Shown: positions 1-13,500 of the stretch, piece after piece
Position numbering within the stretch: position 1 is the stretch's first letter
Layout of the letters: every line of letters starts with the position of its first letter
Assembly: GCA_001929475.1 (NCBI GenBank)
Contig: LXFE01000232.1
Span: forward strand, 1-42,489
DNA: 42,489 nucleotides
Reading direction: 5' to 3'
Source: Neolecta irregularis DAH-3
Taxonomy: Eukaryota
Position numbers and translations under genes: made by a program
Notes under the pieces: model-generated
What the model saw: only the letters and a program-made list of their open reading frames with translations
What the model was told of the DNA's origin: nothing
Database searches by the model: none

Positions 1-120
1 AGTACCAACCAGTACAGCAGCATACTATACCAGTACCCACCAGTCAGCAGTTTACTATACCAGTACTCACCAGGATAGCAGTACAGCAGTATACTATCAG
101 TACCCCACCACTACACCACT
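1..120. repeat. Degenerate low-complexity tandem repeat (CAGTAC / CAGTACAGCAG / TACTATAC units)
   Basis: Recurring ccagtac, cagtacagcag and atactatac motifs over the first ~120 nt. Confidence 0.6.
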
Positions 121-127
121 ACATCTC

Positions 128-1160
128 ATGGACGAGGCAGCCTTCTTTACCCGCCCAGTGCCCGCCCTCGCATTTGCACCTGCGGCATCCTCAGACGCAG
201 ACTCGGACTCGGACGCCGACCCAGCACCCTTGCTCCAGCTGCGCGGATCCTCAGACTCTGACAGCTCCAGCGCCCACTCCTCCTGCATCCCCCGCAAACG
301 TCCCCGCCCGGCTCCCCGCTCGCACTCTCCCTCTCCGCCTCCATGCAAACCCTCTCTGCCGCTCTCTCCTTTGTATTCGTGCAACCCGGGTATTCCTCTC
401 TCTCCTCATATTCCACTCGCTCCTCATATCCCTCTCGCTCCTCATATTCCTATCGCTCCCCATATTCCACTCGCTCCCACCATCCCCGCCCCGCCCTCTC
501 CCCCAGAGTCGCCCGTCCTCGAAATATGCCTGCGTGGCCGTGTGCTCGACGACGCCGCCGCGCTGCCCCCAGACTGGCCCGACCCGCTCATCTTCAAACT
601 CCGCTCCACGCAGACCTTCCGCCTCCTCCTCCGCGCGGCGGTCAGAGCCAAAAACGTCAGCCCCGCCCTTGCAGACTCCATCGTCCTCGCTTGCCGCGGC
701 AGGCGCGTCTTTGGCGCTTCCACCCCCCGCAGCCTCAACCTCGCCCCAGACTCGGACGGCAGAATCTGCATCGACGCCTACACTGCAAATGACTATGAGA
801 AATACAAAACTCTCCACGACAAACAGAGGCTGCGCTCAATCAGCCGGGAGCGCGACCTCCCGCCTCCCCCATTGTGTCCACCCTCCGTCCCAATGAAACG
901 ACTCGTTCTCAGAGGCAAAGACACCACAGACGCAAAGATCAAGACTGCCTTGGTAATACGTCATCCTATCTGCCTCCTTTGACTCGTCCTAGGATACCCC
1001 CGTCGCCAAGATCATCCACAGCTACCGTGAAATGAAGCAACTAGCCGATAGTGTCAAAATATCACTAGAGTTTGACGGCGAAGATATCGACCCAGCCTCT
1101 ACCATAGGCGACGTTGATGATCTGGACGATCAAGATATCATTATCGTCAAAGCCATCTAG
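128..1160 (+). CDS. rad60: Rad60/Esc2/NIP45 family protein with two C-terminal SUMO-like domains
   Basis: Exon 1 128-952, GT-AG intron 953-992, exon 2 993-1160. Low-complexity Pro/Ser N-terminus, then SLD1-like (PLIFKLRSTQTF...RGRRVFGASTPRSLNL) and SLD2-like (RLVLRGKD...ISLEFDGEDIDPASTIGDVDDLDDQDIIIV). Confidence 0.8.
391..480 (+). repeat. Coding 18-bp minisatellite (PHIPLA-type unit, ~5 copies) inside rad60
   Basis: cctcatattccactcgct-like units translate to IPLSPHIPLAPHIPLAPHIPIAPHIPLAP. Confidence 0.8.
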
Positions 1161-1181
1161 CCCTGTCTTTACAACTCCCCC

Positions 1182-1974
1182 CTAATCTTTTTTCAAATCG
1201 CTCAGCTCCACTTGTACACCCTCCTTCGTGACTACATGTATCTCCAAATGGTCCCCAACTTCAATATGACGCTCTGCAGCAGCATTGAAAGCATCCCTCA
1301 CAAGCTTGAGTGCTTGCTCCAACGGTAACGTCGTTTTGGCCCGAGGAATAATCTCCCCATTTGCACTCACTTGAAACTGGTTTTTAAAATTGACCTTGCA
1401 TTAGTTTATATAAATGCACATCTCGGGCACCTGGTTATCGAGGAATGGCATCATCAAACTAGCTGCTGCCCCGCCTGCGCGACACTGTTCACGTTCATAA
1501 GATCCAACCGGGTCAAAAGAATATACCGCCCCAATACCTAATCTTGTTAGTCCTCCCCCAAAACCCCCTGCGCACGGCGTACCTTTTTCATCTAATCCAG
1601 CGACAATAGTATGCACGTAATACGGAAACATTCGTTTCCCATAAAGTAGTGTTTGGATTAACCTAGCAACTGACGATACCTCCATAGGCTTATTATGTGC
1701 ATGATGATACCACTATACACATCAGCTTCATTCACCCTTACTCGACCTCAATTCGTTGGGCAACTCGTTTCACCAAAGTTTCTCCATCGGCCGCGAATCC
1801 ATTAACACCAACTAATATGTTGTCGCCTACATTGAACACTTTAGGTGAATAGCGGGTATTAATGTTATAGCCTCTTGTATGTCGAGTGTCGCTTGCCAGT
1901 ACAGAGAAATCGGAGCCGCTAATCGCAAGGATGGAACCACCGTTGTTTTCGTATGGATTGAATTTACTGCCCAT
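1182..1974 (-). CDS. PRE7: 20S proteasome subunit beta type-6
   Basis: Four exons. Motifs FNPYENNGGSILAISG, GFAADG, FPYYVHTIVAGLDEKG, GAVYSFDPVGSYERE, SLMMPFLDNQV, AERHIEVGD and C-terminal LKKD. Confidence 0.95.
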
Positions 1975-2050
1975 TTGGTTGTGGTTGGTGATGACGCGGA
2001 GTCGGAAAGGTTACTGGTAAACGGGACGATCGTGAATTTCACATTATTAG

Positions 2051-2060
2051 GCTGCCACCA
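2051..2060 (-). promoter_or_regulatory. PACE-like (Rpn4-type) element GGTGGCAG upstream of PRE7
   Basis: Minus strand reads TGGTGGCAGC about 80 nt upstream of the proteasome subunit ATG. The established consensus is GGTGGCAAA. Confidence 0.35.
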
Positions 2061-2230
2061 GAAGAAAGAATCATGAAATTAAAATTGGAAATCAGAGATT
2101 TATCTTTTTGAAAATTGCGAATTCTGTTATTTCTGCATCACACGTTCTGATGACGTGTGACACCAAAATGCAAAAATTCATACAATGCACATACTCCCCA
2201 AGGCAGTCCCTTCTCCCACTGCACCTACAA

Positions 2231-3733
2231 CTACTCCTCCCCCTTGAACTTTATATAATGTTTTGGTGCATCATCCGGTGGCAGCTTAGGCATTGCTGGT
2301 ACTTCAAAGACCCCTGCGAACCTCGTCCGAAATTCTGCTTCCAATTCTTCCAGCTGGGCATCGATCTGTTCATATCCACCTTCACTCGGCTCGAGTTCGG
2401 CTTCCTCGATAGCACAGGGCTCTTCGATTAAACAGTTTCCAGATGTGCAAAGTATGTTTGCATCACTTCCTTCCATTGCAGCCCAATGGGCGTAGGGTGC
2501 CATGCTAACATTGAACTTCTCGATAAACGGGATACCCAAGATAGCCTCATATTTCTCGAGAGGGACTATTAAAAATCTTATTTTCTCTTTTGATAAGAAT
2601 TTTACTGAGGGAATCTCAATCGGGAGGTCTACGTACTCCCGTATTATCTCCGAGTATCCGGCTAATACTTGCGATAGGCGTAAGTTTTTCTTCAATTGTT
2701 TTATCTCGATTTTATTTCGCAATCGATCCGTTACCATTGACGCGATCAAGTTACAATCGGTACCGGTATGAAGGAGTGCCTCGATCACGCGGTCGCACAC
2801 CTTGATGCCCACCGTCAGCTTCTTCCCGACACCATCATGTGGTGTTGTCGTCCAGGAAAGGGAGCAATGGACACTCTCGACACTCTCTTCGTCGTCTTCT
2901 TTTACACCAGGGGACATAACATCCTTGTTTCTGCCTGTTGGAAATTCGTTCCTCGGCCCTTTTCCTGTGCTTTTCATGCATTCCTTGGCGTAATGGCCCT
3001 GGTTGCCGCATTTAAAGCACTCGTTGTTCTTTCCTCTCTTCTTCATCTTTTCTTGGTAGCTAATGCTACCCGCGGTCTTCTCCACGTTCTCCCGGCCTGG
3101 GCGGCGGCTCAATGTCGCCTCCACATTCAATCCTGCAACGACAACTTGTTGCAAGGATGTCATTTGGTATAATTTCGCGCTCAGATAGGATTCGATGTTT
3201 CGTCGAAGCCCATGAGCAAAACGCCTTATCATCTGCGCTTCGGGGTACATAGACTGGTCGAGCTGGTCCCACAGCTCTTGGAATTCTGTCGCATAATCAG
3301 TGACGGATCGAGGACCTTGTCTAAGATTCTCGAACTTGTCCTGTATCGCTGAGACATTTGCGGGGTGCAAAAACTCGTCGGAAAATATTTGGAAAAATTC
3401 GTCGACGCTGTGAATTGATTTTTCATGAAAGTCGAACCATATCGACGCTTCTCCTGTCAGCGAGCACGCTATCTCTTGAAGCAGATGATTATCTGCCTCT
3501 CCGTTGTGGCGTTTGCGCAGTTTCACTATTCGTCGAGTCAGACTCAACCACCCCATTGCCGTCCGGACGGACTTGCCCTCCCCGGAGAATGATGGTAATT
3601 CCCGAATGTTTGCATTCAGACTAACTCCTTTCTGGCCTGTCTCGGCTGCTTGGCCTTTTTCTTCATGTACTTGCACTCTCTCAAGTGGCAGGTTTCTCGT
3701 TCCTGTCGAAATTTCCTGCTTAATGCCGGTCAT
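2231..3733 (-). mobile_element. Ty3/Gypsy-derived Gag (capsid + CCHC zinc knuckle) fused to an inactive aspartyl protease; intact 500-aa ORF truncated before RT
   Basis: Retrotrans_gag-like motifs (LTGEASIWF; LRQGPRSVTDYATEFQEL; RFAHGLR), CX2CX4HX4C knuckle CFKCGNQGHYAKEC, protease ALLHTGTDCNLI...AILGIPF, and a terminal LPPDDAPKHYIKF resembling the PR-RT linker. Intronless. No RT, integrase or LTR seen. Confidence 0.9.
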
Positions 3734-4997
3734 GTCGATAATTCCGCGTTTCCAGAGACGTTAGTCGATTCGTAAAAATATAAGTGTTGAGGCTCGAGTA
3801 CGAATAAGACGAGGTTTACTCTTACCTAAGTGGCGTGAACTTGCTAGGTATGACCCCCTATCTAGCTTTTAACGTACAAATTAAAATGCCGCAATATCAT
3901 TGCAAGCCCTCCTTCCGTAATGGTTACATTTATGTAGCATATGTTTCACATCACTCATAACGTCGATGCATCCCAGACAAATGAACTTATCATAAATTGT
4001 CAGCCATTGCTTGGTTCCTACAACCTAATCTCCTCCATTTTTAAATTCTTACAACTCATTTCATCCGCGCACGCTGTGACATGCGGGTGCTGGGCGCAAC
4101 GATTGGGCGACAGTTACAGTACGGTGAATACTAACCTACTACAGGCGCCTGGCGGATTTCACAGATAGAAGACTTGTAACGATCAGACGGAAAGGGAAAT
4201 ACAATAAATCGCTTTTATGGAGAAACATGCTTCACGAGATTAATTGCATTATTTTTGCACCAAACGCGACTAAACTGTCATATCCATAATGCTCCCCACA
4301 AGTCTTCAGACACCGCCTCGGCGTGAGTTCTCACCAACAGTATTCACCCCCTCAGTTATACCTGCATAACTACCTGATCAATTGCTGGAACACTTCCTGT
4401 CCGGCTGGAATGTCGTGGTTCCTGCAGTCATAAACGCAATTTTCTCAACTCTGGGGGACCTTCAACGTCGAGTCCGCTGAAAAGGAATTCTTGGTTTGTG
4501 ACACTTCCCAGGGGTTATTTTCCTAAAATCAGATCATTTATGACTAATCGACACTTTCTCCACAGTGCCCACATAAGACCCTGGTGATGCCAAACGGATA
4601 CCGGGCTGATCGGGTTATTTTACCGCAGTTTTTTGACCCTCGGCGTGATTTTCTGTTTTCGCTTATTTGTGCTCGATGACTAGTTATGGGCCTCTAGACC
4701 CGGCCTGTGATATGGGCAAAATCATCACAGGCATATTTGGCTGTTTGTTGAGAAGCGACTTTTAAACCCTCTTGCACCTTTTCAAGATGTTCAAGAATGA
4801 CGTTCAGCCGGCAGAAATAATAAGAGCTATCCCCCGATTTGTCAGGTTACCAAACGCCTCTACATGTTTTAGGCATCAATAAAGCCAATGGCATCGACGG
4901 CAGCCTGCTTTAGATATCACAAGTCATAGAATTGTGTCATTGGGTCCTTGCTTATGATTAATATAACTCAAAGTAAACGAAAATCCCCCGGCGCAAA

Positions 4998-5336
4998 CTA
5001 TCCAACTTGATTATCTTTCGCTGCAGATATATAAAGAACTAGCAATATTAAAAATATCTTAAACAGTGGGCGGAACATACCATTATTCCCTCTAATAAAC
5101 ACATCTCCATATTTATTTTTCAACTGGCCATTCACGTACTCTTCAGTCTCTTCAACAGCACAGTTCATATACCCATCGATACAATTGAGGACACCTGAAC
5201 AGGATCAGGACGGGGAGCACACTAAATGCACACCTTTGTAATCAACGCCAGAATTCAACCTGACGACGACCTGTTTTCCGAGGATTTTTCCCAGAAAAGT
5301 AGAAGTGGGATTATCGCGCGTTTCTTCGTCAGCCAT
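4998..5336 (-). CDS. LSM6: U6 snRNA-associated Sm-like protein LSm6
   Basis: Not in the ORF track. Three exons splice to MADEETRDNPTSTFLGKILGKQVVVRLNSGVDYKGVLNCIDGYMNCAVEETEEYVNGQLKNKYGDVFIRGNNVLYISAAKDNQVG, the typical LSm6 Sm1/Sm2 sequence. Confidence 0.95.
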
Positions 5337-5449
5337 GGACCTCGAGTGAGAGTATATTGAGGTGAGGCTTGAAATCGAACTGCAACGTCATTCCAGAATT
5401 TTACCGCCCGAAACTGTCTCTTTTAAAAAAAAAGAGTAATTAATTGAGC

Positions 5450-8373
5450 ATGGGATGGAATGAAGATGTTGCGCGATCACAGCCAATTCATGGTAAATAC
5501 TCTCTTTTTTTGAGCGCGAATAGGCTAAGTTTGGATAGAAGCTATCCAGCTGGGCCATCACAGGCAAGCATTACAACTCTGCACCAAAGCTCTCAAGAGG
5601 ACACCACAGTCCTTATTACTACGAGTACACCATATCATTACATAACACCGAGTCAACTAGTTAGACCCTCAAAGCTCTCACACTTACAAAACTTGGCAGG
5701 AAGGATGAAGCATGGCAAGTCTGTCAAGAAGTAATTGCCCAAGTTCCTACAGACTTTGAAGCTCTGAATGTTTTGCACATGTTGATGGAAAACATTGGAA
5801 AAGGTTCTTTTACCATTCTGAATAATCACGCTAAATAAATAAAAAGGCAATGAAGCCGTTGTAATGTATGACAACGCATTGAAAAAATCCCCGAAAGATG
5901 AAACTTTGGCTCACCATTTCTTCTTGACTATGGTCCAAACGGGAAATATAAAGGCCCAGCAAAGGGTCTAGTCGCCTTTGTAATTGTCGCTTACAAGTTA
6001 CAGGTCGCCATGCACTTGCAAAAGACATTTAATCGCCAGGAATATTACCAATATGCCGTTCAATCCCTCCATCTTTTACACGTACAATCAATTGTATCTG
6101 CTGTATTAAGGAATAGAAACAAGAGCCGTCATCTATTTATGGAACGCTTGCCTGTAGAATGATCGAAAAGGCAATACAACAAAATACTGAAACTTTTACG
6201 TGCGAACAAGTTCATTTGTACGTTACGATACTAGCCTTTCACAAAAGATATCAACAAGCAGCCGATGTTTTAGAGAAATTTCTTCCTTTGGAAAATTCTG
6301 AAGATATCGAATTTCTCCGACTGAAGCTTTCTATTCTCGATGAAATGGCTGATTGGACAACTTTATATTCGCTATGCATATCACTTATTGACAATGGAAA
6401 AGATGATTGGAGAGTATATCAACTGGCGATCAAAACTTTTGTCTCATTATTTTTGGACGCAAAGAAGGAGCCAAAGTAATCTTCTTGGTCAATCATAATT
6501 TTTCTAACATAAAAGTGAACTCGGTGAATTACTCTCATATTTTAAAAGAAAAGACTCGCGAAATGCTGATTTAGCATCCATTTCACTCACTTTTAAGCGC
6601 CTTAATTCAGATCTTGCTTCCGCGAGTTTAAATGCTTGCGTTGAATATTTCAACAAATATTGCAAAAAGCCATCATGTTTTGAGGATTTAGAGCCATACG
6701 TGAGGATGCTTTCTTTTGATGAACGTACCCAGTTTCTTCAAAGCATCCAGGTATCTCTTGAAGAGAATGCCAAGGTACATGTTGATTTTATCACTTTTTG
6801 ATTATCAGTTGTCTGTCGATCTCATTACTTCTGAAATAAATATTCAGAAATTATCTTTCCTCATTAATTCCTCACAACGACAGACGATAAATGAGTCGTT
6901 TGTGAAAACAAATATAGACCTATATGCTAGGGGCCTTCACGTTGGACAGGCGCGGGAAAAAATAGACAATAGTTGCAGCGACGATGCCTTGTTACTAGCT
7001 TGTCATGCTTTATTATTGGTAAATTCTCTAGAGTGTAGGTGGAAGAGTATGATTCTGCTGATAGTCAGTACATACATCGATCATTCAAGCGATCACTTTA
7101 CTCGATTTCGGACTCAAGCATTCACCTTGCAATTATCAATTCAAGTTTCTTTTAATTCGGCTTTACATCATGCTTGGAGCATTTCCACAAGCTATATCAG
7201 TGTACAAGAGCCTTAATATCAAGCAGATTCAATGCGATACCCTCAATCATTTGGTTTTCACAAGAATCGCTTCAGTCTACCCCTCTGAAACTGTCACCAG
7301 TTTACTCAAAGAATCATGTAGTATATACGGTGCGAATGCCGAAGAAACCCCTGAAGCTATCTGTAGAGCCTACGAAAGTGGCGCTTGGAGCAAAATCGAA
7401 GATTTTACGAAGCTTCGTCAAAGATTAGAAGCAAGCCTCTGGAAAGCCATGACGGGAATTGAGTTGGGTAGGCTTGCCTTTTTTCAGAATGGGCATAACT
7501 ACGATTTCCAATACAATTTTGGCGGCTTGGAATCGAGTTTTAGTGATAATCGGGATTTCAAGATCCTTCGTAACTGCATTTGGTCAAAAGATGACTATAT
7601 TGAATGCTGTACCCGGTTACAGCCACTGCCAATGGTACTGCGGCCCTAAATATCGCTGCATGGACTCAACTTTAGTCGTCCTGGTTCATACTGCAAAAGA
7701 CTTTGTATGACCTCCGAAGTGTTTTGCTAAAAGGGGATTTTCTTGAGGTACATCGTGTGACGGAAAGGCTAAAGGAATGCTTTACAGCAGCTACCCAGGA
7801 GCTGTCTCCACATGAAGCTTCATTTTTCACCAAACTGATATCTCTCCTTGAATATTGTAAAAATGGTAATACATCAAATCTTTGTATTGGAAATATCACT
7901 TGGAAGGACAAGTGTGATGGAAGATCGGTTGAGGAGCTGTGTCTTCATCTGGAGGTATCTCAATATGTGTAGTATCTCCTGACATGCAGTTAATCCTTTT
8001 CAAGTTACTCATCTGTGCAACAAGGGAATTCTCGTTAGATAATAGAAACGGCAAAGCTGCTCCCAGTTTGGTCATTCATACACTGAATGAAGAAGTCAAG
8101 CGAGATCTCAAGGGTCTGAACTTGACATTAAATTGGGCGAAGGAAAACATTGGAAATCGGTCTCTTGACCAGTGTCTGGAGCAAGTACGAACACTGCCTA
8201 GTCTGAAGCTTTTGGGTCCTACGGCAAATTAACCAGGCTGATATGGGGCTAATTTTTAGTTGGATGACCTTTTCATCACGCAAATCCTGGAGCGGCTGCG
8301 GGAAGTACAACTAGAGGTGCTCAATTGCATCTCTGATCACGTTGAGCGTTTCGGTAGAAACTTTTGCATATAG
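5450..8373 (+). CDS. MDM20: NatB N-terminal acetyltransferase auxiliary subunit (NAA25/MDM20), multi-exon
   Basis: TPR-like N-terminus (QPIHEAIQLGHHRQALQLCTKALKRTP...TLKALTLTKLGRKDEA), KPSCFEDLEPY, YKSLNIKQIQCDTLNHL, ETPEAICRAYESGAWSKIEDF, and DNRDF. Internal exon boundaries are approximate. Confidence 0.88.
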
Positions 8374-8463
8374 CAAGTATTTAGGAAGCATTGTCATGTG
8401 ATAAGAACGCCGCGACGTCATTCACGCCATGTACATCTGTGTTCCTTGCTACGACCCGCCACC

Positions 8464-10141
8464 ATGACAGATTTAAATATCGACCAAGAAATCTTGGGTC
8501 AATTTTGCGCAATCACAGATGCTGCACCGCAAACCGCTATCCAATATCTTCGTGTATCAGACAACTTGGAACAAGCGATAACATTATTCTACGAGAGCGG
8601 AGGAGCTGATCTTGTTGGAGCAAATGATGCTCCTTCCCGGCAATCTGCCGAAATAGTTTCTGAAACGCACCAAGACCTCCTTTCCGGCTCCCACATTGAT
8701 GATGATGAAGCTATGGCTAGACGACTGCAAGCAGAATTCTCAGAATCAGCCCAAGAGAATGATGGCCAAGTTAGAGCACCAATTTCCCCAACTCGAGATA
8801 TCCTAGTCGATCCCAGTATGGGTGATATTGGAGGAATGATTCCACAATTCGGTGCTATTCAGGGTGGTATGAGACCGGATATGCTGTCTTGGGAATCTTA
8901 TGATTCCAGCGAGCCGTTCTACTCGCCGAGGAATTTTTAATCAGGCACAACCATCCGTGTGGGATAACTCTGAAGCAAGTCTTGCTGAGGCAACAGGTAA
9001 ATCAGGCCAATACCAAAATCTTGGAGTTGCTGATATGAAGGTGGTGCATCTAGGGAAGGGGATAAAGCTAGCCGCCTTGCTAGTATGTATCGGCCTCCAT
9101 TTGAGATCATGACGGACATGGCATTGGAGGATGCATGTTTCCATAATATTTAGGTTCTGATTCAATAGGCCCGAGAAGACGGCAAACGCAAAAAGAAATG
9201 GATTATGATTACCATACAAAATATGAGCGAATTTTTCTGTCAGTTGTTGAATCGGGATATTTGGTCAGACCCCGACGTGCAAGCTTGCGTTCGTGAGAAT
9301 TTCATATTCATTCAAGTGCACATCAGATATACTGGACAACACTGATGTCAAGCACAATATGGATACACATGAGGGACAACAAATATTACAGCTCTATCCT
9401 GTCAGACAGTATCCAAACTTGCTGATAATCGATCCGCGGACAGGAGAGAAAATGAAGGAAATTTACGACCTCGGAGAACCACCTACTAAAGGCCACCTCA
9501 TGATGGCTCGTATGTTAATTTTGATTCTCATGATTTGACTACAAGTCATGGATTTCCTTGATAGGTTTTCGTTAGATCCTAAGAAGAAAAACCCTGTTCC
9601 CAAAACTTCTACGTCAAAGGTATACAAGACCTTTTAAGCACCAACTGAAAAACTAGAGCATCGAGGACATGACTGAAGACGAGCAAATGAATGCAGCCAT
9701 GATGGAGTCCCTCAAACCCTCGTCACCAAATTCGAATACTCCTAACAATAGGGAAATGGGAGTTTTGGACAATGAAGATCAAAGTGCTCAGTCTCCAGAA
9801 AGTATTCAAACGACTTTTGTCAATCCGCTTATCAAATAGCTACCCCGAATAACGACATATTTGCCAATTTGACACCAGTACATCGTGATGAAACTACAGC
9901 AAATCTAAATACTACGAGAATTCAGTTAAGGTTTCCGGATGGAACTAGGGTCGTCCGCAAGTTTGATCTAGACGTGTCAGTGAGACATATCTTTGAATTC
10001 ATCCTCTCAGACGTTGATTGCGCAAAAGGGAGGGTTTTTGATGTCACATTCATGGGCAATAATCTTCTAGAGAAGTTGGAAATGTCTCTTGCTGATGCTG
10101 GATTAAAAAGCTCCTCACTTACAATAGAATATAGAACTTGA
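8464..10141 (+). CDS. UBX5: UBX domain protein (UBA-like, UIM, UAS, UBX; UBXN7/Ubx5 type Cdc48 cofactor)
   Basis: N-terminal UBA-like (QFCAITDA...NLEQAITLFYE), VRAPI, MYRPPFEIM, UAS (KKWIMITIQ...CQLLNRDIWSD), UIM (MTEDEQMNAAMMESL) and UBX (TRIQLRFPDGTRVVRKF...SLADAGLKSS). Confidence 0.88.
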
Positions 10142-10588
10142 TATTTTAAAATTTCGATGATCGATCTCGTGCTTCAGAGCAGATATTTAAAATTCCCATT
10201 TAGTCTGCCATGTTGGTTTCCTAGGGTTTTATATAGAAGGTTAGCCTCTCAAAGACTTTCTATTCAAAGAGCTCTATCCCAAACTAAACCCTACTCGAAA
10301 CTATTGAGCATGACCCCCAACTTATTTCAACACTGAAGTAGCATATCTCATTCAGACAACACAAAAGCTCTTTGTTTCTAAGCCAACCCTCTTTGACCTT
10401 ACAATAACCAATTTAAACATACCTACTCAATTTGAACATAAATCAGAAGTAGGAACTTATGATTTAAGTCTTCACTAAACTGATCTCAAAGATTTATGCT
10501 TGAAACATTATAATCCGCCCGAAGTAGTGAAAGGAAATTAGATTTATTCAACTTGAATAATATCTGTAGCATCATTCTTCCGTTCAGT

Positions 10589-13500
10589 TCACATTCCATG
10601 CGACTTTATCATGTAATCTTTGTTGTCAATAGTAATGCTCTTTGTCTATTCTGTTAGAGGTGAAAAGTTTCTAAATTGATTTTCTACCATGTTTGAAGTC
10701 TTATATATCCCAACCAACCTTGCAGAAAGTTCAAACATATTATTTCGCAGGGAAATAACAATAAATTGGGCATTTTTCGTACGTTCCTGAAAGTAAGTGA
10801 TTGGAGGATTACGATGGGTACCTTGATATAATTTGCAATAATAGAAACATTACGAAAGTCAAGTGCCGCGTCGATCTCATCCATGACATAAAGCGGCGTT
10901 GGCTTAAAATGGTGCAACGCAAATACAAGGGCGAGTGAACTCAGAGTTTTCTCACCCCCAGACAGATTTGAGATATTCTTCCAGCTCTTTTTGGGCGGCA
11001 TGACACTGAAAAGAATTCCTTCAGAGAAGGGATCCAAACTGTCGACAAGTTCCAGTTCTGCGTTTCCACCCATTGTAATCATCTTTTTATGAGAAATGAT
11101 AAAGATCTCATCATACCTGGTACATCTCCTTTAGTCGAATCGAAATGATATTAAAACCATCCATGAATCCATTCAATCTTCTTTTACGAAGATCGTCGCA
11201 TCGTTTCTTTGCTGAATCTCGGGAAAAAGTTGCCTGCTCGAGATCTTTGCTTCGCGCTTGATACTCATCTGCTCTTCGTTTGTACTCTTCAAGAACTGCC
11301 AGATCAACCTTTGCAGACAGTGTCCGTTCTTCAAGGACCGCGATCTCGCCCTTAAGTTCATTTTTGTCGAGACCATGGAGTTCATCAACAGAACACACGG
11401 AAAGCTCAATATGATCTTCCCCTTCAATCCACTCACTATAGCACTCAGAATCAGCTTAGTAAGGGAGCTACCTTGGATTGTGTAATTCCAGTTTGCCATG
11501 CTTTTCTTGCCAATGTTTCAACTTTCTGTTGTTTTCGGCAACGATCTTTTGGTGCTCTTCAAGCCTATTCCGCATCTCAATCTATATTTCAGCAACAAGG
11601 CGTAAAGGAAATTTTACTTCGGCAGCACGCAAGGCATTGATTTCGTCAGTTTTCTGGGTTAATTCCCCTTTCAGCGTGGTCAACTTTTCGGCCTTGGTCT
11701 CGATAATCTATGATATGAGCAGGAAGCCAAGCCAAAACCTAACATATTTCGCCTCCTCGGCTTGTTCACGAATGGACGTGGCAACTATTTCTTTTTCTTG
11801 AATACTCACATCCAGGGCCTTGAGCTCTTCGGCGATACTTTCTAGTTCCTCTTCGCTGCTTTTCAAAGTTTTCTCATGTTTTGAGCAATCCACGAGGGCT
11901 TTGGCTTTCGCAAGTTCGGCCGTTGTAATTCGTTCATTGAGGCTCTCAATCTGCTCTCGAAGACTGTCGACCTTGGACTTCTGACCTCGAAGGCGAACAC
12001 CACCAATTTCCATGATTTTGTTCTGTAGTTCCTTGATTTCCTCTTCGATACCCGCTGTTTCAGAATGCAGACGGGCAATTATTTTTCCCCCAGCTCTAAT
12101 TTGTTCCTCCAGCAGACTCATTCGATCGAGTTCCGCTTTAGACAAGAGACCGCCCTTCCTAATTATAAGAAGTGTCAGTGGTTCCGATTGCATACCCAAG
12201 CTCCGTTATACGACGTTCCAGATCTGTGACACTTTTATCAAACGACGAAATCTCCAACTTCAATTTCGAAATTTGAATCTCAATCTTTGGATTTTGATTT
12301 TCTAGTTCTTGCAGGTTTCGCTCTAGGTCATTCTTGCGTTGTTGATTCTGCTGAAAGTCGCTTTCTTGGGCCTCGACGTCTTTCTCGAGTTTCGCAACCG
12401 CCTCTTTGGTGGTTTCGGCGACCAATTTACTGCTCATTGCACCTTTCATAATGCGGCTGCCACCACCGCTCATAGTACCCGCTTTATCAATAAGTTGACC
12501 ATCAAGGGTGACAACACGCCAACGTTTCTGTCCGTAGGCAATTCGGTTAGCCTGGGCCAAATCCTTTGCGACTAGCGTATTTTGGAGGACGCTATAAAAT
12601 GCAGGTGCAAAGCGTGTGTCTTTGATTTTTACAAGATCGAATAACCGAGGGACATTTTCAGAGGTATCAATAGGTCTGAGATCCCGTGAAGCCAAACGAT
12701 CAAGACAAATGAAACTTGCTCGGCCGAGATTATTCTTCCGTAGATAGTCAATGCATTGTTGACCGACTTCAACGGAATCTACAATGAGACTATCAAGCTG
12801 AGGGCAAGCTGTGGAGATTGCAACATCGAATTTCACATCAATGGTACCAAGATTCCCAAGTCGGCCCTGTTATTTTAGTCTTTATAACCAAGGTATTTTA
12901 CATGAAAACCATTGATCCGCCCAGATTCTTTCAGCCGTAGAAGACCACCGAGAACATTTCCTTGGTTTTGAGAAGCAGAAAGAGAGGCACGGGCGTCATC
13001 TGCTTTGGCTCTACTGCGTTGTAATTCATCTCGAGATTTTGCATTATCATTGTTGCAAGCATCAAGTTCCCTCCTGACTGTTGCTATTTTCTGTTCGATC
13101 TCCCGAAATGACGCTCCACAGTTGCGAATTTCCTCCAACTAAAGTTTTAAAATATATTTAATATAATTCACACACCTTTGCCTTTCGCGATTCTTGAATC
13201 TGAGAAGTCTCAGCTATTGTCTCTTCTTTTGCTCTGTCAACGGCAACCTTTTTATTCTCAAGGATTTCTAATTCCGACTGCGCAACTGCTATAACCGACT
13301 GTGTTTCGTTAATATTCTGACGCCAAGGATCCAGGAACTTCTGTTTCTCTTCGATCTGGTCAGAAAAAGGTTTTGTCTTTCCTGAAAATTTAGACAGAAA
13401 TCTACAACAACTACATACCCTTTAATCCATTCTGAATTGAGACAAGTTCCTCCTCTTCCTTGACTAACCGCGTTTCAAGCTCGGTTATAGAAATGTTGAA

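What the first reader, a model, noticed from the sequence alone, without database searches (positions are those of the whole stretch)
2231..3733. Solo, intact Gag-CCHC-dead protease ORF: candidate domesticated retrotransposon capsid gene
Seen: a 500-codon ORF with no stops or frameshifts encoding Ty3/Gypsy capsid, zinc knuckle and protease fold. It ends cleanly at the PR-RT linker. The ~250 nt downstream, up to the PRE7 start, show no RT remnant, and I found no LTR pair or tRNA primer site. It sits among housekeeping genes. Known: Gag or Gag-PR genes of this architecture have been domesticated elsewhere (PEG10/RTL, Arc, yeast Ty1 Gag restriction factors). Inference: it may be a host gene forming RNA-binding capsids or restricting related elements.
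Basis: partly seen in the sequence, partly recalled or inferred. Interest (0 to 1): 0.78.

Follow-up and report, generated by a model that had tools for sequence, protein, structure and literature searches.

The report
Truncated retrotransposon Gag-protease remnant, transcribed
An intact 500-codon piece of a Ty3/gypsy-type retrotransposon (capsid, zinc knuckle and a protease lacking its catalytic aspartate) sits between housekeeping genes of the fungus Neolecta irregularis; it could be a co-opted gene, but a leftover element fragment fits the evidence at least as well.

Summary
The ORF at 2231-3733 (-) has 500 codons and is the longest open frame on the contig. It encodes a Ty3-type capsid, one CCHC knuckle and a retropepsin fold in which His322 replaces the catalytic Asp (13 of 13 chosen relatives keep Asp). 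It stops about 12 residues into the RT N-terminal motif. No RT, RNase H or integrase remnant, LTR pair or tRNA gene exists in the 42.5 kb.

"Solo" needs qualifying. The window is a contig of Neolecta irregularis DAH-3. That proteome has two Gag-CCHC paralogues (43% and 33% identical). A DNA run holds further patches 80-92% identical to the ORF. A roughly 144-nt multi-copy, LTR-like segment lies 48 nt upstream of the ATG.

A cDNA-like run covers 2208-4238 as one unspliced, error-free contig, so the locus is transcribed. The strand is unknown: an antisense RNA from the proteasome gene's promoter fits as well as a sense mRNA, which would carry 13 upstream ATGs.

No orthologue, synteny or dN/dS test was possible. 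My reading is a 3'-truncated retrotransposon remnant (0.6). Co-option as a capsid-poisoning, Drt2-like factor stays open (about 0.25).

The parts
2231..3733 (-). 500-codon ORF (ATG 3733-3731, TAG 2233-2231) encoding Gag capsid, CCHC knuckle and a protease-like domain; a second in-frame TAG lies two codons after the first, so read-through would not extend it
3104..3601 (-). Capsid (CA) domain, aa 45-210, two helical lobes
   Evidence: Pfam Retrotrans_gag and Ty3_capsid; pLDDT above 90; PEG10 CA-CTD Z 13.8 rmsd 2.0 over 86 residues; dArc1/2, Ty3 capsid 6r24 Z 10.4, Copia capsid Z 11.9
2978..3019 (-). CCHC zinc knuckle, aa 239-252 (C239, C242, H247, C252)
   Evidence: Pfam zf-CCHC; invariant columns in alignment A3, nearly invariant in A1 and A2
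2498..2821 (-). Retropepsin-like domain, aa 305-412, with the I-L-G-x-P-F motif at 398-403
   Evidence: no Pfam protease family at E up to 10; leave-one-out profile score 66.0, 6th of 14
2768..2770 (-). Codon CAT = His322 at the position of the catalytic Asp (L-L-H-T-G-T-D)
2246..2284 (-). Last homologous stretch, aa 484-496: the first residues of the RT N-terminal motif; the truncation point lies just after it
   Evidence: tblastn of relatives reaches down to 2255 only
1975..2230 (-). 256-nt spacer between the stop codon and the ATG of the proteasome-subunit gene; no RT-like reading in any frame
3781..3924 (.). Multi-copy dispersed segment, possibly the 3' end of a 5' LTR, 48 nt upstream of the ATG. 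Other copies continue differently beyond 3924 and have unrelated flanks below 3781
   Evidence: X1 depth 3830 against about 401, 8 contigs, loose-end consensus; the LTR identity is inference
2208..4238 (.). Transcribed unit: one unspliced 2031-nt contig of run X2 with 0 differences, bounded by zero-cover gaps (about 2020-2207 and 4239-4252); strand unknown
   Evidence: motifs near its ends

Best explanation
This is a 3'-truncated copy of a Ty3/gypsy-type (Metaviridae-like) LTR retrotransposon family that lives in the Neolecta irregularis genome. What survives is possibly the last ~144 nt of a 5' LTR, a short leader, and a single gag-NC-PR reading frame. A deletion just inside the start of RT removed RT, RNase H, integrase and the 3' LTR, leaving the fragment 256 nt upstream of a proteasome-subunit gene. 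The protease cannot be catalytic because its Asp is now His. The fragment cannot transpose. The locus lies in transcribed chromatin, but the RNA may be an antisense by-product of the neighbour's promoter. Shown: the domain content, the His322 substitution, the truncation point, the absence of Pol and of an LTR pair, related copies in the genome, and transcription. Inferred: the LTR identity of the repeat, deletion as the cause of the truncation, and the lack of a host function.
For: Gag, CCHC and retropepsin architecture ending in the RT N-terminal motif. No Pol remnant anywhere in 42.5 kb: all 20 tblastn hits with E below 0.01, from 16 relatives including 9 that bear Pol, lie within 2255-3622. 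A multi-copy segment ends 48 nt before the ATG, with about 9-fold excess depth and 8 contigs. Extra DNA contigs match the ORF in patches (106 nt with 9 differences; 110 nt with 22 differences) at 1.5-2 times single-copy depth. Two Gag-CCHC paralogues sit in the same proteome on short contigs of 6.7 and 4.6 kb; such short contigs would fit repeats that broke the assembly, which is inference. Co-resident active subfamilies in fission yeasts also have Gags only 32-55% identical (passages). The ORF is intronless in a region with an intron every 100-350 nt. Its GC3 of 0.52 exceeds that of four host exons (0.37-0.47). The 505-nt putative leader has 13 upstream ATGs, not depleted against shuffles at 9.4 +/- 2.8. 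The ORF is absent from the public proteome. For the antisense reading of the RNA: contig end 2208 lies 188 nt from the proteasome transcript's end (about 2019), and a plus-strand AATAAA sits 30 nt before the other end, at 4203.
Against: The ORF is fully intact although the nearest copies seen differ by 8% or more in nucleotides. If that divergence had built up neutrally after insertion, stops or frameshifts would be expected (inference). The one clear lesion hits exactly the catalytic Asp, which is unlikely for a fragment carrying only a few random mutations. In the 91.5%-identical patch, the listed differences are 4 synonymous and 2 conservative replacements. The capsid and knuckle keep every nearly invariant family residue, and the model folds confidently. 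The locus is transcribed at a depth (76) similar to neighbouring genes (18-128), while no RNA contig of the diverged copies was laid on the ORF. The proximal 166 nt of leader has no upstream ATG.
Confidence: 0.6

Rival explanations
1. Co-opted host gene. The retained Gag-NC-(dead PR) protein is made and either co-assembles with the Gag of related elements and poisons their particle lattice or maturation (an uncleavable Gag-PR fusion acting like Drt2, Ty1 p22, Fv1 or enJS56A1), or it forms RNA-binding capsids like Arc and PEG10.
For: Intact 500-codon ORF with all conserved capsid and knuckle residues. Confident two-lobe capsid and retropepsin fold. Loss of just the catalytic Asp. No Pol or LTR pair, and a fixed position between housekeeping genes. 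The locus is transcribed. Possible targets exist, namely family copies 80-92% identical in nucleotides. A fungal precedent exists: DRT2 is an endogenised Ty1' gag fragment under purifying selection (passages).
Against: No orthologue in any searched collection, so neither synteny nor dN/dS could be tested. The strand of the RNA is unknown and antisense features are at least as good. There are 13 upstream ATGs if the mRNA starts at 4238. The ORF is intronless and its GC3 is not host-like. In the 80%-identical patch the listed changes are 3 synonymous and 5 replacement codons. It is not single-copy in the sense of the co-option screen of Wang and Han.
Confidence: 0.25
2. Internal part of a still mobile, non-autonomous element that supplies its own Gag and borrows protease, RT and integrase from autonomous relatives.
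For: Gag is kept while the protease is dead. Related copies exist. One diverged copy has a different or missing 309-nt linker between capsid and protease (joint 2787 to 3097), which suggests structural variants in the family.
Against: No LTR pair, and no second copy of the 3781-3924 segment anywhere in the 42.5-kb contig. The proteasome gene starts 256 nt after the stop, leaving no room for a PPT and 3' LTR. No copy of 95% identity or more was seen apart from the locus itself: 11 of 46 laid records at 99% or more tile the locus, and 1 was at 95-99%.
Confidence: 0.06
3. Assembly chimera: the Gag fragment is not really adjacent to the housekeeping genes.
For: The DNA unitigs of X1 break at 2041-2070, 2542-2569 and 3541-3570, so branch points exist.
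Against: Overlapping error-free unitigs tile 1000-8989 in X1. An independent cDNA-like contig of X2 spans 2208-4238 without a difference. Similar breaks occur inside ordinary genes, for example at 5824-5853.
Confidence: 0.02

Closest known systems
Ty3/gypsy (Metaviridae) LTR retrotransposons, Gag3/PR of Ty3
   Same: Capsid fold (Ty3 capsid 6r24 Z 10.4; Pfam Ty3_capsid), one CCHC knuckle, a retropepsin fold, and the RT-opening motif in the same order.
   Different: No RT, RNase H, integrase or LTR pair. The catalytic Asp is replaced by His. It is only 21-27% identical to the nearest protease-bearing relatives, which are unnamed environmental contigs.
Drt2 (S. cerevisiae DRT2) and Ty1 p22/p18 Gag-derived restriction factors
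   Same: A fragment of a retrotransposon gag kept as an intact ORF at a fixed locus in a fungus, with related elements in the genome. The CA-CTD fold matches 9rxy (Z 10.7, rmsd 2.3, 84 residues). DRT2 is described as an endogenised fragment that poisons the capsid lattice (passages).
   Different: Drt2 derives from Ty1/Copia, comprises only the CA-CTD region (169 aa), is present across S. cerevisiae lineages with purifying selection, and has knock-out evidence. Here the whole Gag plus a dead protease is kept, the source is Ty3/gypsy-like, and none of those tests exists.
PEG10 / RTL (SIRH) genes of mammals
   Same: Ty3/gypsy-derived Gag with CCHC followed by a retropepsin domain, without RT or LTRs. 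It is the best structural match of the capsid C-lobe (7lga Z 13.8, 30% identity; phmmer E 0.0096).
   Different: From recall: PEG10 expresses its protease through a -1 frameshift and keeps an active D-S-G. Here there is a single frame with His at that site. No shared ancestry beyond the retrotransposon superfamily is implied.
Arc / dArc1 / PNMA capsid genes
   Same: Two-lobe capsid fold (dArc1/2 Z 11-12, PNMA2 Z 10.3).
   Different: As I recall, those genes lack a protease domain and are conserved across host lineages.
Crtg12-14, the fungal co-opted gag genes of Wang and Han 2021
   Same: Gag-only derivatives in fungi (passages).
   Different: Those derive from Ty1/Copia (two) and Bel-Pao (one), are single copy, and are shared by two or more families with synteny. 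This locus is Ty3/gypsy-like, lies in Taphrinomycotina, and has no known orthologue.
Ddi1-type RVP domains
   Same: The best structural matches of the protease-like domain (Z 11.4-11.9).
   Different: No ubiquitin-like or UBA domains were detected here, and the catalytic Asp is missing. The resemblance is in fold only.

Membership tests
Ty3/gypsy LTR retrotransposon (complete element) | Pair of long terminal repeats | tested here: not met
   No flanking direct repeat in 1-12000. blastn of 1975-4980 against the whole contig gave only the self-hit. Only a single LTR-like fragment, at 3781-3924.
Ty3/gypsy LTR retrotransposon (complete element) | Gag with retrotransposon capsid and CCHC nucleocapsid | tested here: met
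   Pfam Retrotrans_gag, Ty3_capsid and zf-CCHC above their cut-offs; fold matches.
Ty3/gypsy LTR retrotransposon (complete element) | Retropepsin with catalytic D-T/S-G | tested here: not met
   The fold is present, but His322 stands where 13 of 13 chosen relatives have Asp.
Ty3/gypsy LTR retrotransposon (complete element) | RT, RNase H and integrase downstream of the protease | tested here: not met
   tblastn with 9 Pol-bearing relatives found nothing outside 2255-3622; the three downstream frames show nothing RT-like.
Ty3/gypsy LTR retrotransposon (complete element) | Primer binding site next to the 5' LTR | tested here: inconclusive
   No tRNA gene in the window to compare with; nothing convincing by eye in 3734-3780.
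Co-opted (domesticated) gag gene, criteria as in Wang and Han 2021 | Orthologues at a syntenic site in other taxa | not testable with these tools
   No genome held. No hit above 43% identity among 1.84 billion representatives. Two metagenome scans were empty.
Co-opted (domesticated) gag gene, criteria as in Wang and Han 2021 | Purifying selection on the ORF | tested here: inconclusive
   Only 19 listed nucleotide differences to paralogous contigs: 8 synonymous codons and 8 replacement codons. These are paralogues, not orthologues.
Co-opted (domesticated) gag gene, criteria as in Wang and Han 2021 | Expression of the sense strand | tested here: inconclusive
   An unspliced cDNA-like contig covers 2208-4238. 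Contigs carry no strand, and the signals near its ends fit either strand.
Co-opted (domesticated) gag gene, criteria as in Wang and Han 2021 | Free of LTRs and Pol, among host genes | tested here: met
Drt2/p22-type lattice-poisoning restriction factor | CA-CTD able to pair with the Gag of a resident element; loss raises retromobility | not testable with these tools
   Fold resemblance only (9rxy Z 10.7). Related copies are present. No binding or genetic test was made.
PEG10/RTL-like Gag-PR gene | Gag-CCHC followed by an active retropepsin | tested here: not met
   The architecture is met, but the catalytic Asp is absent.

The most novel reading that the evidence does not exclude
Neolecta irregularis keeps this fragment as a host gene. 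A full-length Gag is fused to a protease made uncleaving by Asp322His, and it co-assembles with the Gag of the related resident elements and blocks particle assembly or maturation. That would be a Ty3/gypsy-derived counterpart of yeast Drt2, and the first Ty3/gypsy gag co-option reported in fungi. The basis for 'first' is two full-text searches and passages of Wang and Han 2021, who list only Copia- and Bel-Pao-derived cases in fungi.
Probability: 0.22. Interest if true: 0.7.

Novelty: new member of a known kind. Interest (0 to 1): 0.38.

Why it matters
If it is only a remnant, its value is for annotation. It is an unannotated 500-codon ORF in the sole published Neolecta genome, and it is evidence that a Ty3/gypsy-like family with diverged Gag subfamilies lives in this small, intron-dense genome, whose genome paper has no occurrence of 'transpos' in its main text. 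If it is co-opted, Gag-based self-defence, so far demonstrated in fungi for Ty1 in Saccharomyces, would extend to a Ty3/gypsy element in an early-diverging ascomycete. It would also add a new twist: a whole Gag held uncleaved by a dead protease. The locus is small and well defined, so the question is directly testable.

Tried and rejected

**Protein and metagenome searches.**
- Word-based protein searches found nothing at near lengths (0 of 7928 candidates) or at longer lengths (0 of 5395). The exhaustive HMMER search then found 382 hits.
- Two metagenome-contig scans found no relative: single protein, 349 pattern matches and none confirmed; three-sequence alignment, 452 and none confirmed. 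A ten-sequence alignment was too diverse for the tool.

**Sequencing runs.** No RNA holder was listed by the look-up of sequencing runs. X2 is labelled 'DNA?' but skips introns.

**Other searches on the locus.**
- Rfam on 1900-5100 gave 0 matches.
- Pfam found no aspartyl-protease family for the whole protein or for aa 283-440 alone, even at E up to 10.

**Idea rejected: the protease part is selectively decayed relative to Gag.** In leave-one-out profiles the protease segment ranks 6th of 14 (66.0 bits) and the capsid 1st of 14. That ranking is biased, because the rows were chosen as hits of this protein.

**Idea rejected: the spliced plus-strand RNA at 4253-5038 is a small gene.** It has no ORF.

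**Not attempted.**
- Complex prediction was not used, because a pass would not separate a young remnant from a co-opted gene.
- Whether the paralogous copies carry Asp or His at codon 322 could not be read, because differences within about 31 nt of an aligned block's end are not listed.
They may say whether repeats were masked.

A search term was too short (resent). A frame slip in a reference was corrected.

Full report
**Observation.** The minus strand carries an ATG-to-TAG frame of 500 codons at 2231-3733.
- It is the longest stop-free frame of the 42,489-bp window, at 509 codons. The surrounding genes are cut by introns every 100-350 nt.
- Pfam places Retrotrans_gag (E 2.3e-16, aa 89-178), Ty3_capsid (3.7e-8) and one zf-CCHC (5.4e-5, aa 238-254) on it. 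It reports no protease family, even for aa 283-440 alone at E up to 10.

**Fold.** An AlphaFold2 model was built on a 142-row alignment of HMMER hits. Mean pLDDT is 73.7, with values above 90 over aa 45-210 and about 90 over 305-410.
- Foldseek and the VIA second look match the first block to retroelement capsids: PEG10 CA-CTD Z 13.8 (rmsd 2.0, 86 residues), dArc1/2 Z 11-12, Ty3 capsid Z 10.4.
- They match the second block to retropepsins: Ddi1 RVP Z 11.4-11.9, EIAV PR Z 11.2 (rmsd 2.0, 100 residues), and M-PMV, FIV and HIV PR at Z 9-11.

**Dead protease.** From the 150 hits listed, I picked the 13 whose match reached the protease region. All 13 have Asp in the D-T/S-G column (one reads D-N-A and two read D-C-G). 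The window protein reads L-L-H-T-G-T-D, with His322 encoded by CAT at 2768-2770. The downstream I-L-G-x-P-F motif is kept. A leave-one-out profile test ranks the protease segment 6th of 14. Apart from the lost Asp, it is not unusually decayed for its family (the rows were selected as hits of this protein, which flatters it).

**Truncation and surroundings.**
- Residues 484-496 align with the L-P-P-x-R-x-x-x-H-x-I motif that opens RT in the relatives. The stop follows four codons later, and a second in-frame TAG lies two codons on.
- The nearest protease-bearing relatives (P0004, P0152) run Gag-PR-RT in one frame, so this stop is not a native Gag-Pol boundary.
- tblastn used 16 relatives, 9 of them extending into Pol. 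All 20 hits with E below 0.01 lie within 2255-3622; the 5 hits outside the ORF are weak (E 0.076 to 0.33).
- There is no direct repeat flanking the ORF, no second copy of any part of 1975-4980 in the contig, no tRNA gene and no Rfam match.
- Neighbours are a proteasome subunit (ATG at 1974), an LSM gene, NatB-MDM20 and SMC4.

**Organism and family.** An SMC4 exon is 100% identical to SMC4 of Neolecta irregularis DAH-3, on a contig of 42,489 bp. The window is that contig.
- The ORF's exact product is not in the 15-billion-protein collection.
- The exhaustive HMMER search found no hit above 43% identity, with 382 hits at E up to 1e-3 and only 4 at up to 1e-10. The ORF is therefore unannotated and has no known orthologue.
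- The two best hits (43% and 33% identical; 35% to each other) are N. irregularis hypothetical proteins NEOLI_004467 and NEOLI_004825. They are Gag-CCHC only and sit on contigs of 6.7 and 4.6 kb, so they are paralogues.
- The next ten hits I looked up are plant retrotransposon Gags or unnamed environmental contigs.
- Gag identities of 32-55% between co-resident active subfamilies are reported for fission-yeast elements (passages). Such divergence therefore does not by itself mark host genes.

**Copies in the genome.** I laid the contigs of two runs on 1000-9000. In the DNA-like run X1 the locus is tiled by error-free unitigs at depth 401-452. Of 46 laid records, 18 were 90-95% alike and 16 were under 90% alike. 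The extra contigs on the ORF include:
- 2542-2647 (9 differences in 106 nt, depth 620);
- 2678-2787 (22 differences in 110 nt, depth 825), joined to 3097 onward with 309 nt skipped or replaced;
- shorter patches near 2539, 3233 and 3519-3550.

A segment at 3781-3924, 48 nt upstream of the ATG, has depth 3830 and 8 contigs. Other copies share a different continuation beyond 3924 (agreement 0.71) and have unrelated flanks below 3781 (0.58). This is what the 3' end of an LTR with solo copies elsewhere would look like, though that is inference. 'Solo' is thus true of the contig but not of the genome.

**Expression.** Run X2 is labelled 'DNA?', but its contigs skip 34-46-nt GT..AG or CT..AC introns in the proteasome, LSM and NatB genes, so it behaves as cDNA.
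- One 2031-nt contig (depth 76.4, 0 differences, unspliced) covers 2208-4238. Zero-cover gaps separate it from the proteasome contig (depth 503, ending near 2019) and from a contig starting at 4253.
- The locus is therefore transcribed at a level like its neighbours (18-128), and not through DNA contamination.
- The strand is unknown. A sense mRNA from 4238 would have a 505-nt leader with 13 upstream ATGs (shuffles give 9.4 +/- 2.8; there are none in the last 166 nt). It would have a 23-nt 3' UTR, with TATATA 44-49 nt before the end.
- A plus-strand RNA would start 188 nt from the proteasome transcript, as divergent promoter transcripts do. It would end 30 nt after the only AATAAA in 4150-4260.
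- A spliced plus-strand RNA without an ORF starts right next door at 4253.
- I cannot decide between the two strands.

**Selection.** Only 19 nucleotide differences to paralogous contigs are listed inside the ORF. They give 8 synonymous codons and 8 replacement codons. In the 91.5% patch there are 4 synonymous and 2 conservative replacements. In the 80% patch there are 3 synonymous and 5 replacement codons. This hints at some past constraint, as in any active element family, and does not separate the hypotheses.

**Reading.** The simplest account is a 3'-truncated family member that has not yet decayed, sitting in transcribed chromatin (0.6).
- Against it stand the intact frame despite 8% or more divergence from every copy seen, and the fact that the single obvious lesion removes exactly the catalytic Asp.
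- Those points keep co-option open (about 0.25).
- The most concrete mechanism for co-option would be lattice or maturation poisoning by an uncleavable Gag-PR. That is analogous to S. cerevisiae Drt2, an endogenised Ty1' gag fragment shown by selection analysis and knock-outs to restrict its parent element (passages).
- A non-autonomous mobile element (0.06) and an assembly chimera (0.02) are unlikely.

**Known context.** Wang and Han 2021 (passages) list three fungal gag co-options, from Copia (two) and Bel-Pao (one). They required orthology across families, and none is Ty3/gypsy-derived. A fungal TE co-option screen (passages) has no occurrence of Neolecta. The Neolecta genome paper (passages) has no occurrence of 'transpos' in its main text, and its supplements were not visible. 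As a remnant this is a new member of a known kind. As a co-opted gene it would be a new variant of the Drt2, Fv1 and PEG10 theme.

Noticed in passing
window 4253-5038 (+): A spliced RNA contig in X2 (39-nt GT..AG intron at about 4494-4532 on the plus strand) has no ORF in any frame. It abuts the transcribed Gag unit and overlaps the 3' side of the LSM gene on the other strand. It looks like a non-coding RNA.
   Followed up: partly
window 3781-3924: A dispersed repeat of about 144 nt with roughly 9-fold excess DNA depth (8 contigs). It is also present in RNA contigs from other loci. Its identity (LTR end, SINE or other) is unresolved.
   Followed up: partly
window 2-982 (+), repeats at 373-486: A GC-rich (59-65%) ORF open at the contig start, with five tandem 18-nt units encoding a P-L-A-P-H-I-type repeat. 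It has no Pfam family at E up to 1.
   Followed up: partly
window about 4640-4705: A second contig in both X1 (depth 435) and X2 (depth 46) differs from the window at 4668 and 4674. This is a small paralogous or allelic segment in the non-coding interval.
   Followed up: no
window 1000-9000: All 15 listed splice joints skip only 34-46 nt, so introns here are extremely short and dense. The 1.5-kb Gag ORF is the one long uninterrupted coding stretch.
   Followed up: no
P0002 (NEOLI_004467) and P0003 (NEOLI_004825): Two annotated 'hypothetical proteins' of the same fungus are retrotransposon Gag-CCHC proteins (Pfam Retrotrans_gag 3e-12 and 1e-13), on contigs of 6.7 and 4.6 kb. The 60-residue tail of P0002 after the knuckle resembles nothing and may be a gene-model artefact.
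   Followed up: partly
P0004 / P0152 (unnamed environmental contigs): The nearest protease-bearing relatives read D-N-A instead of D-T/S-G at the catalytic motif while continuing into RT. This is an unusual active-site variant in an apparently complete polyprotein.
   Followed up: no
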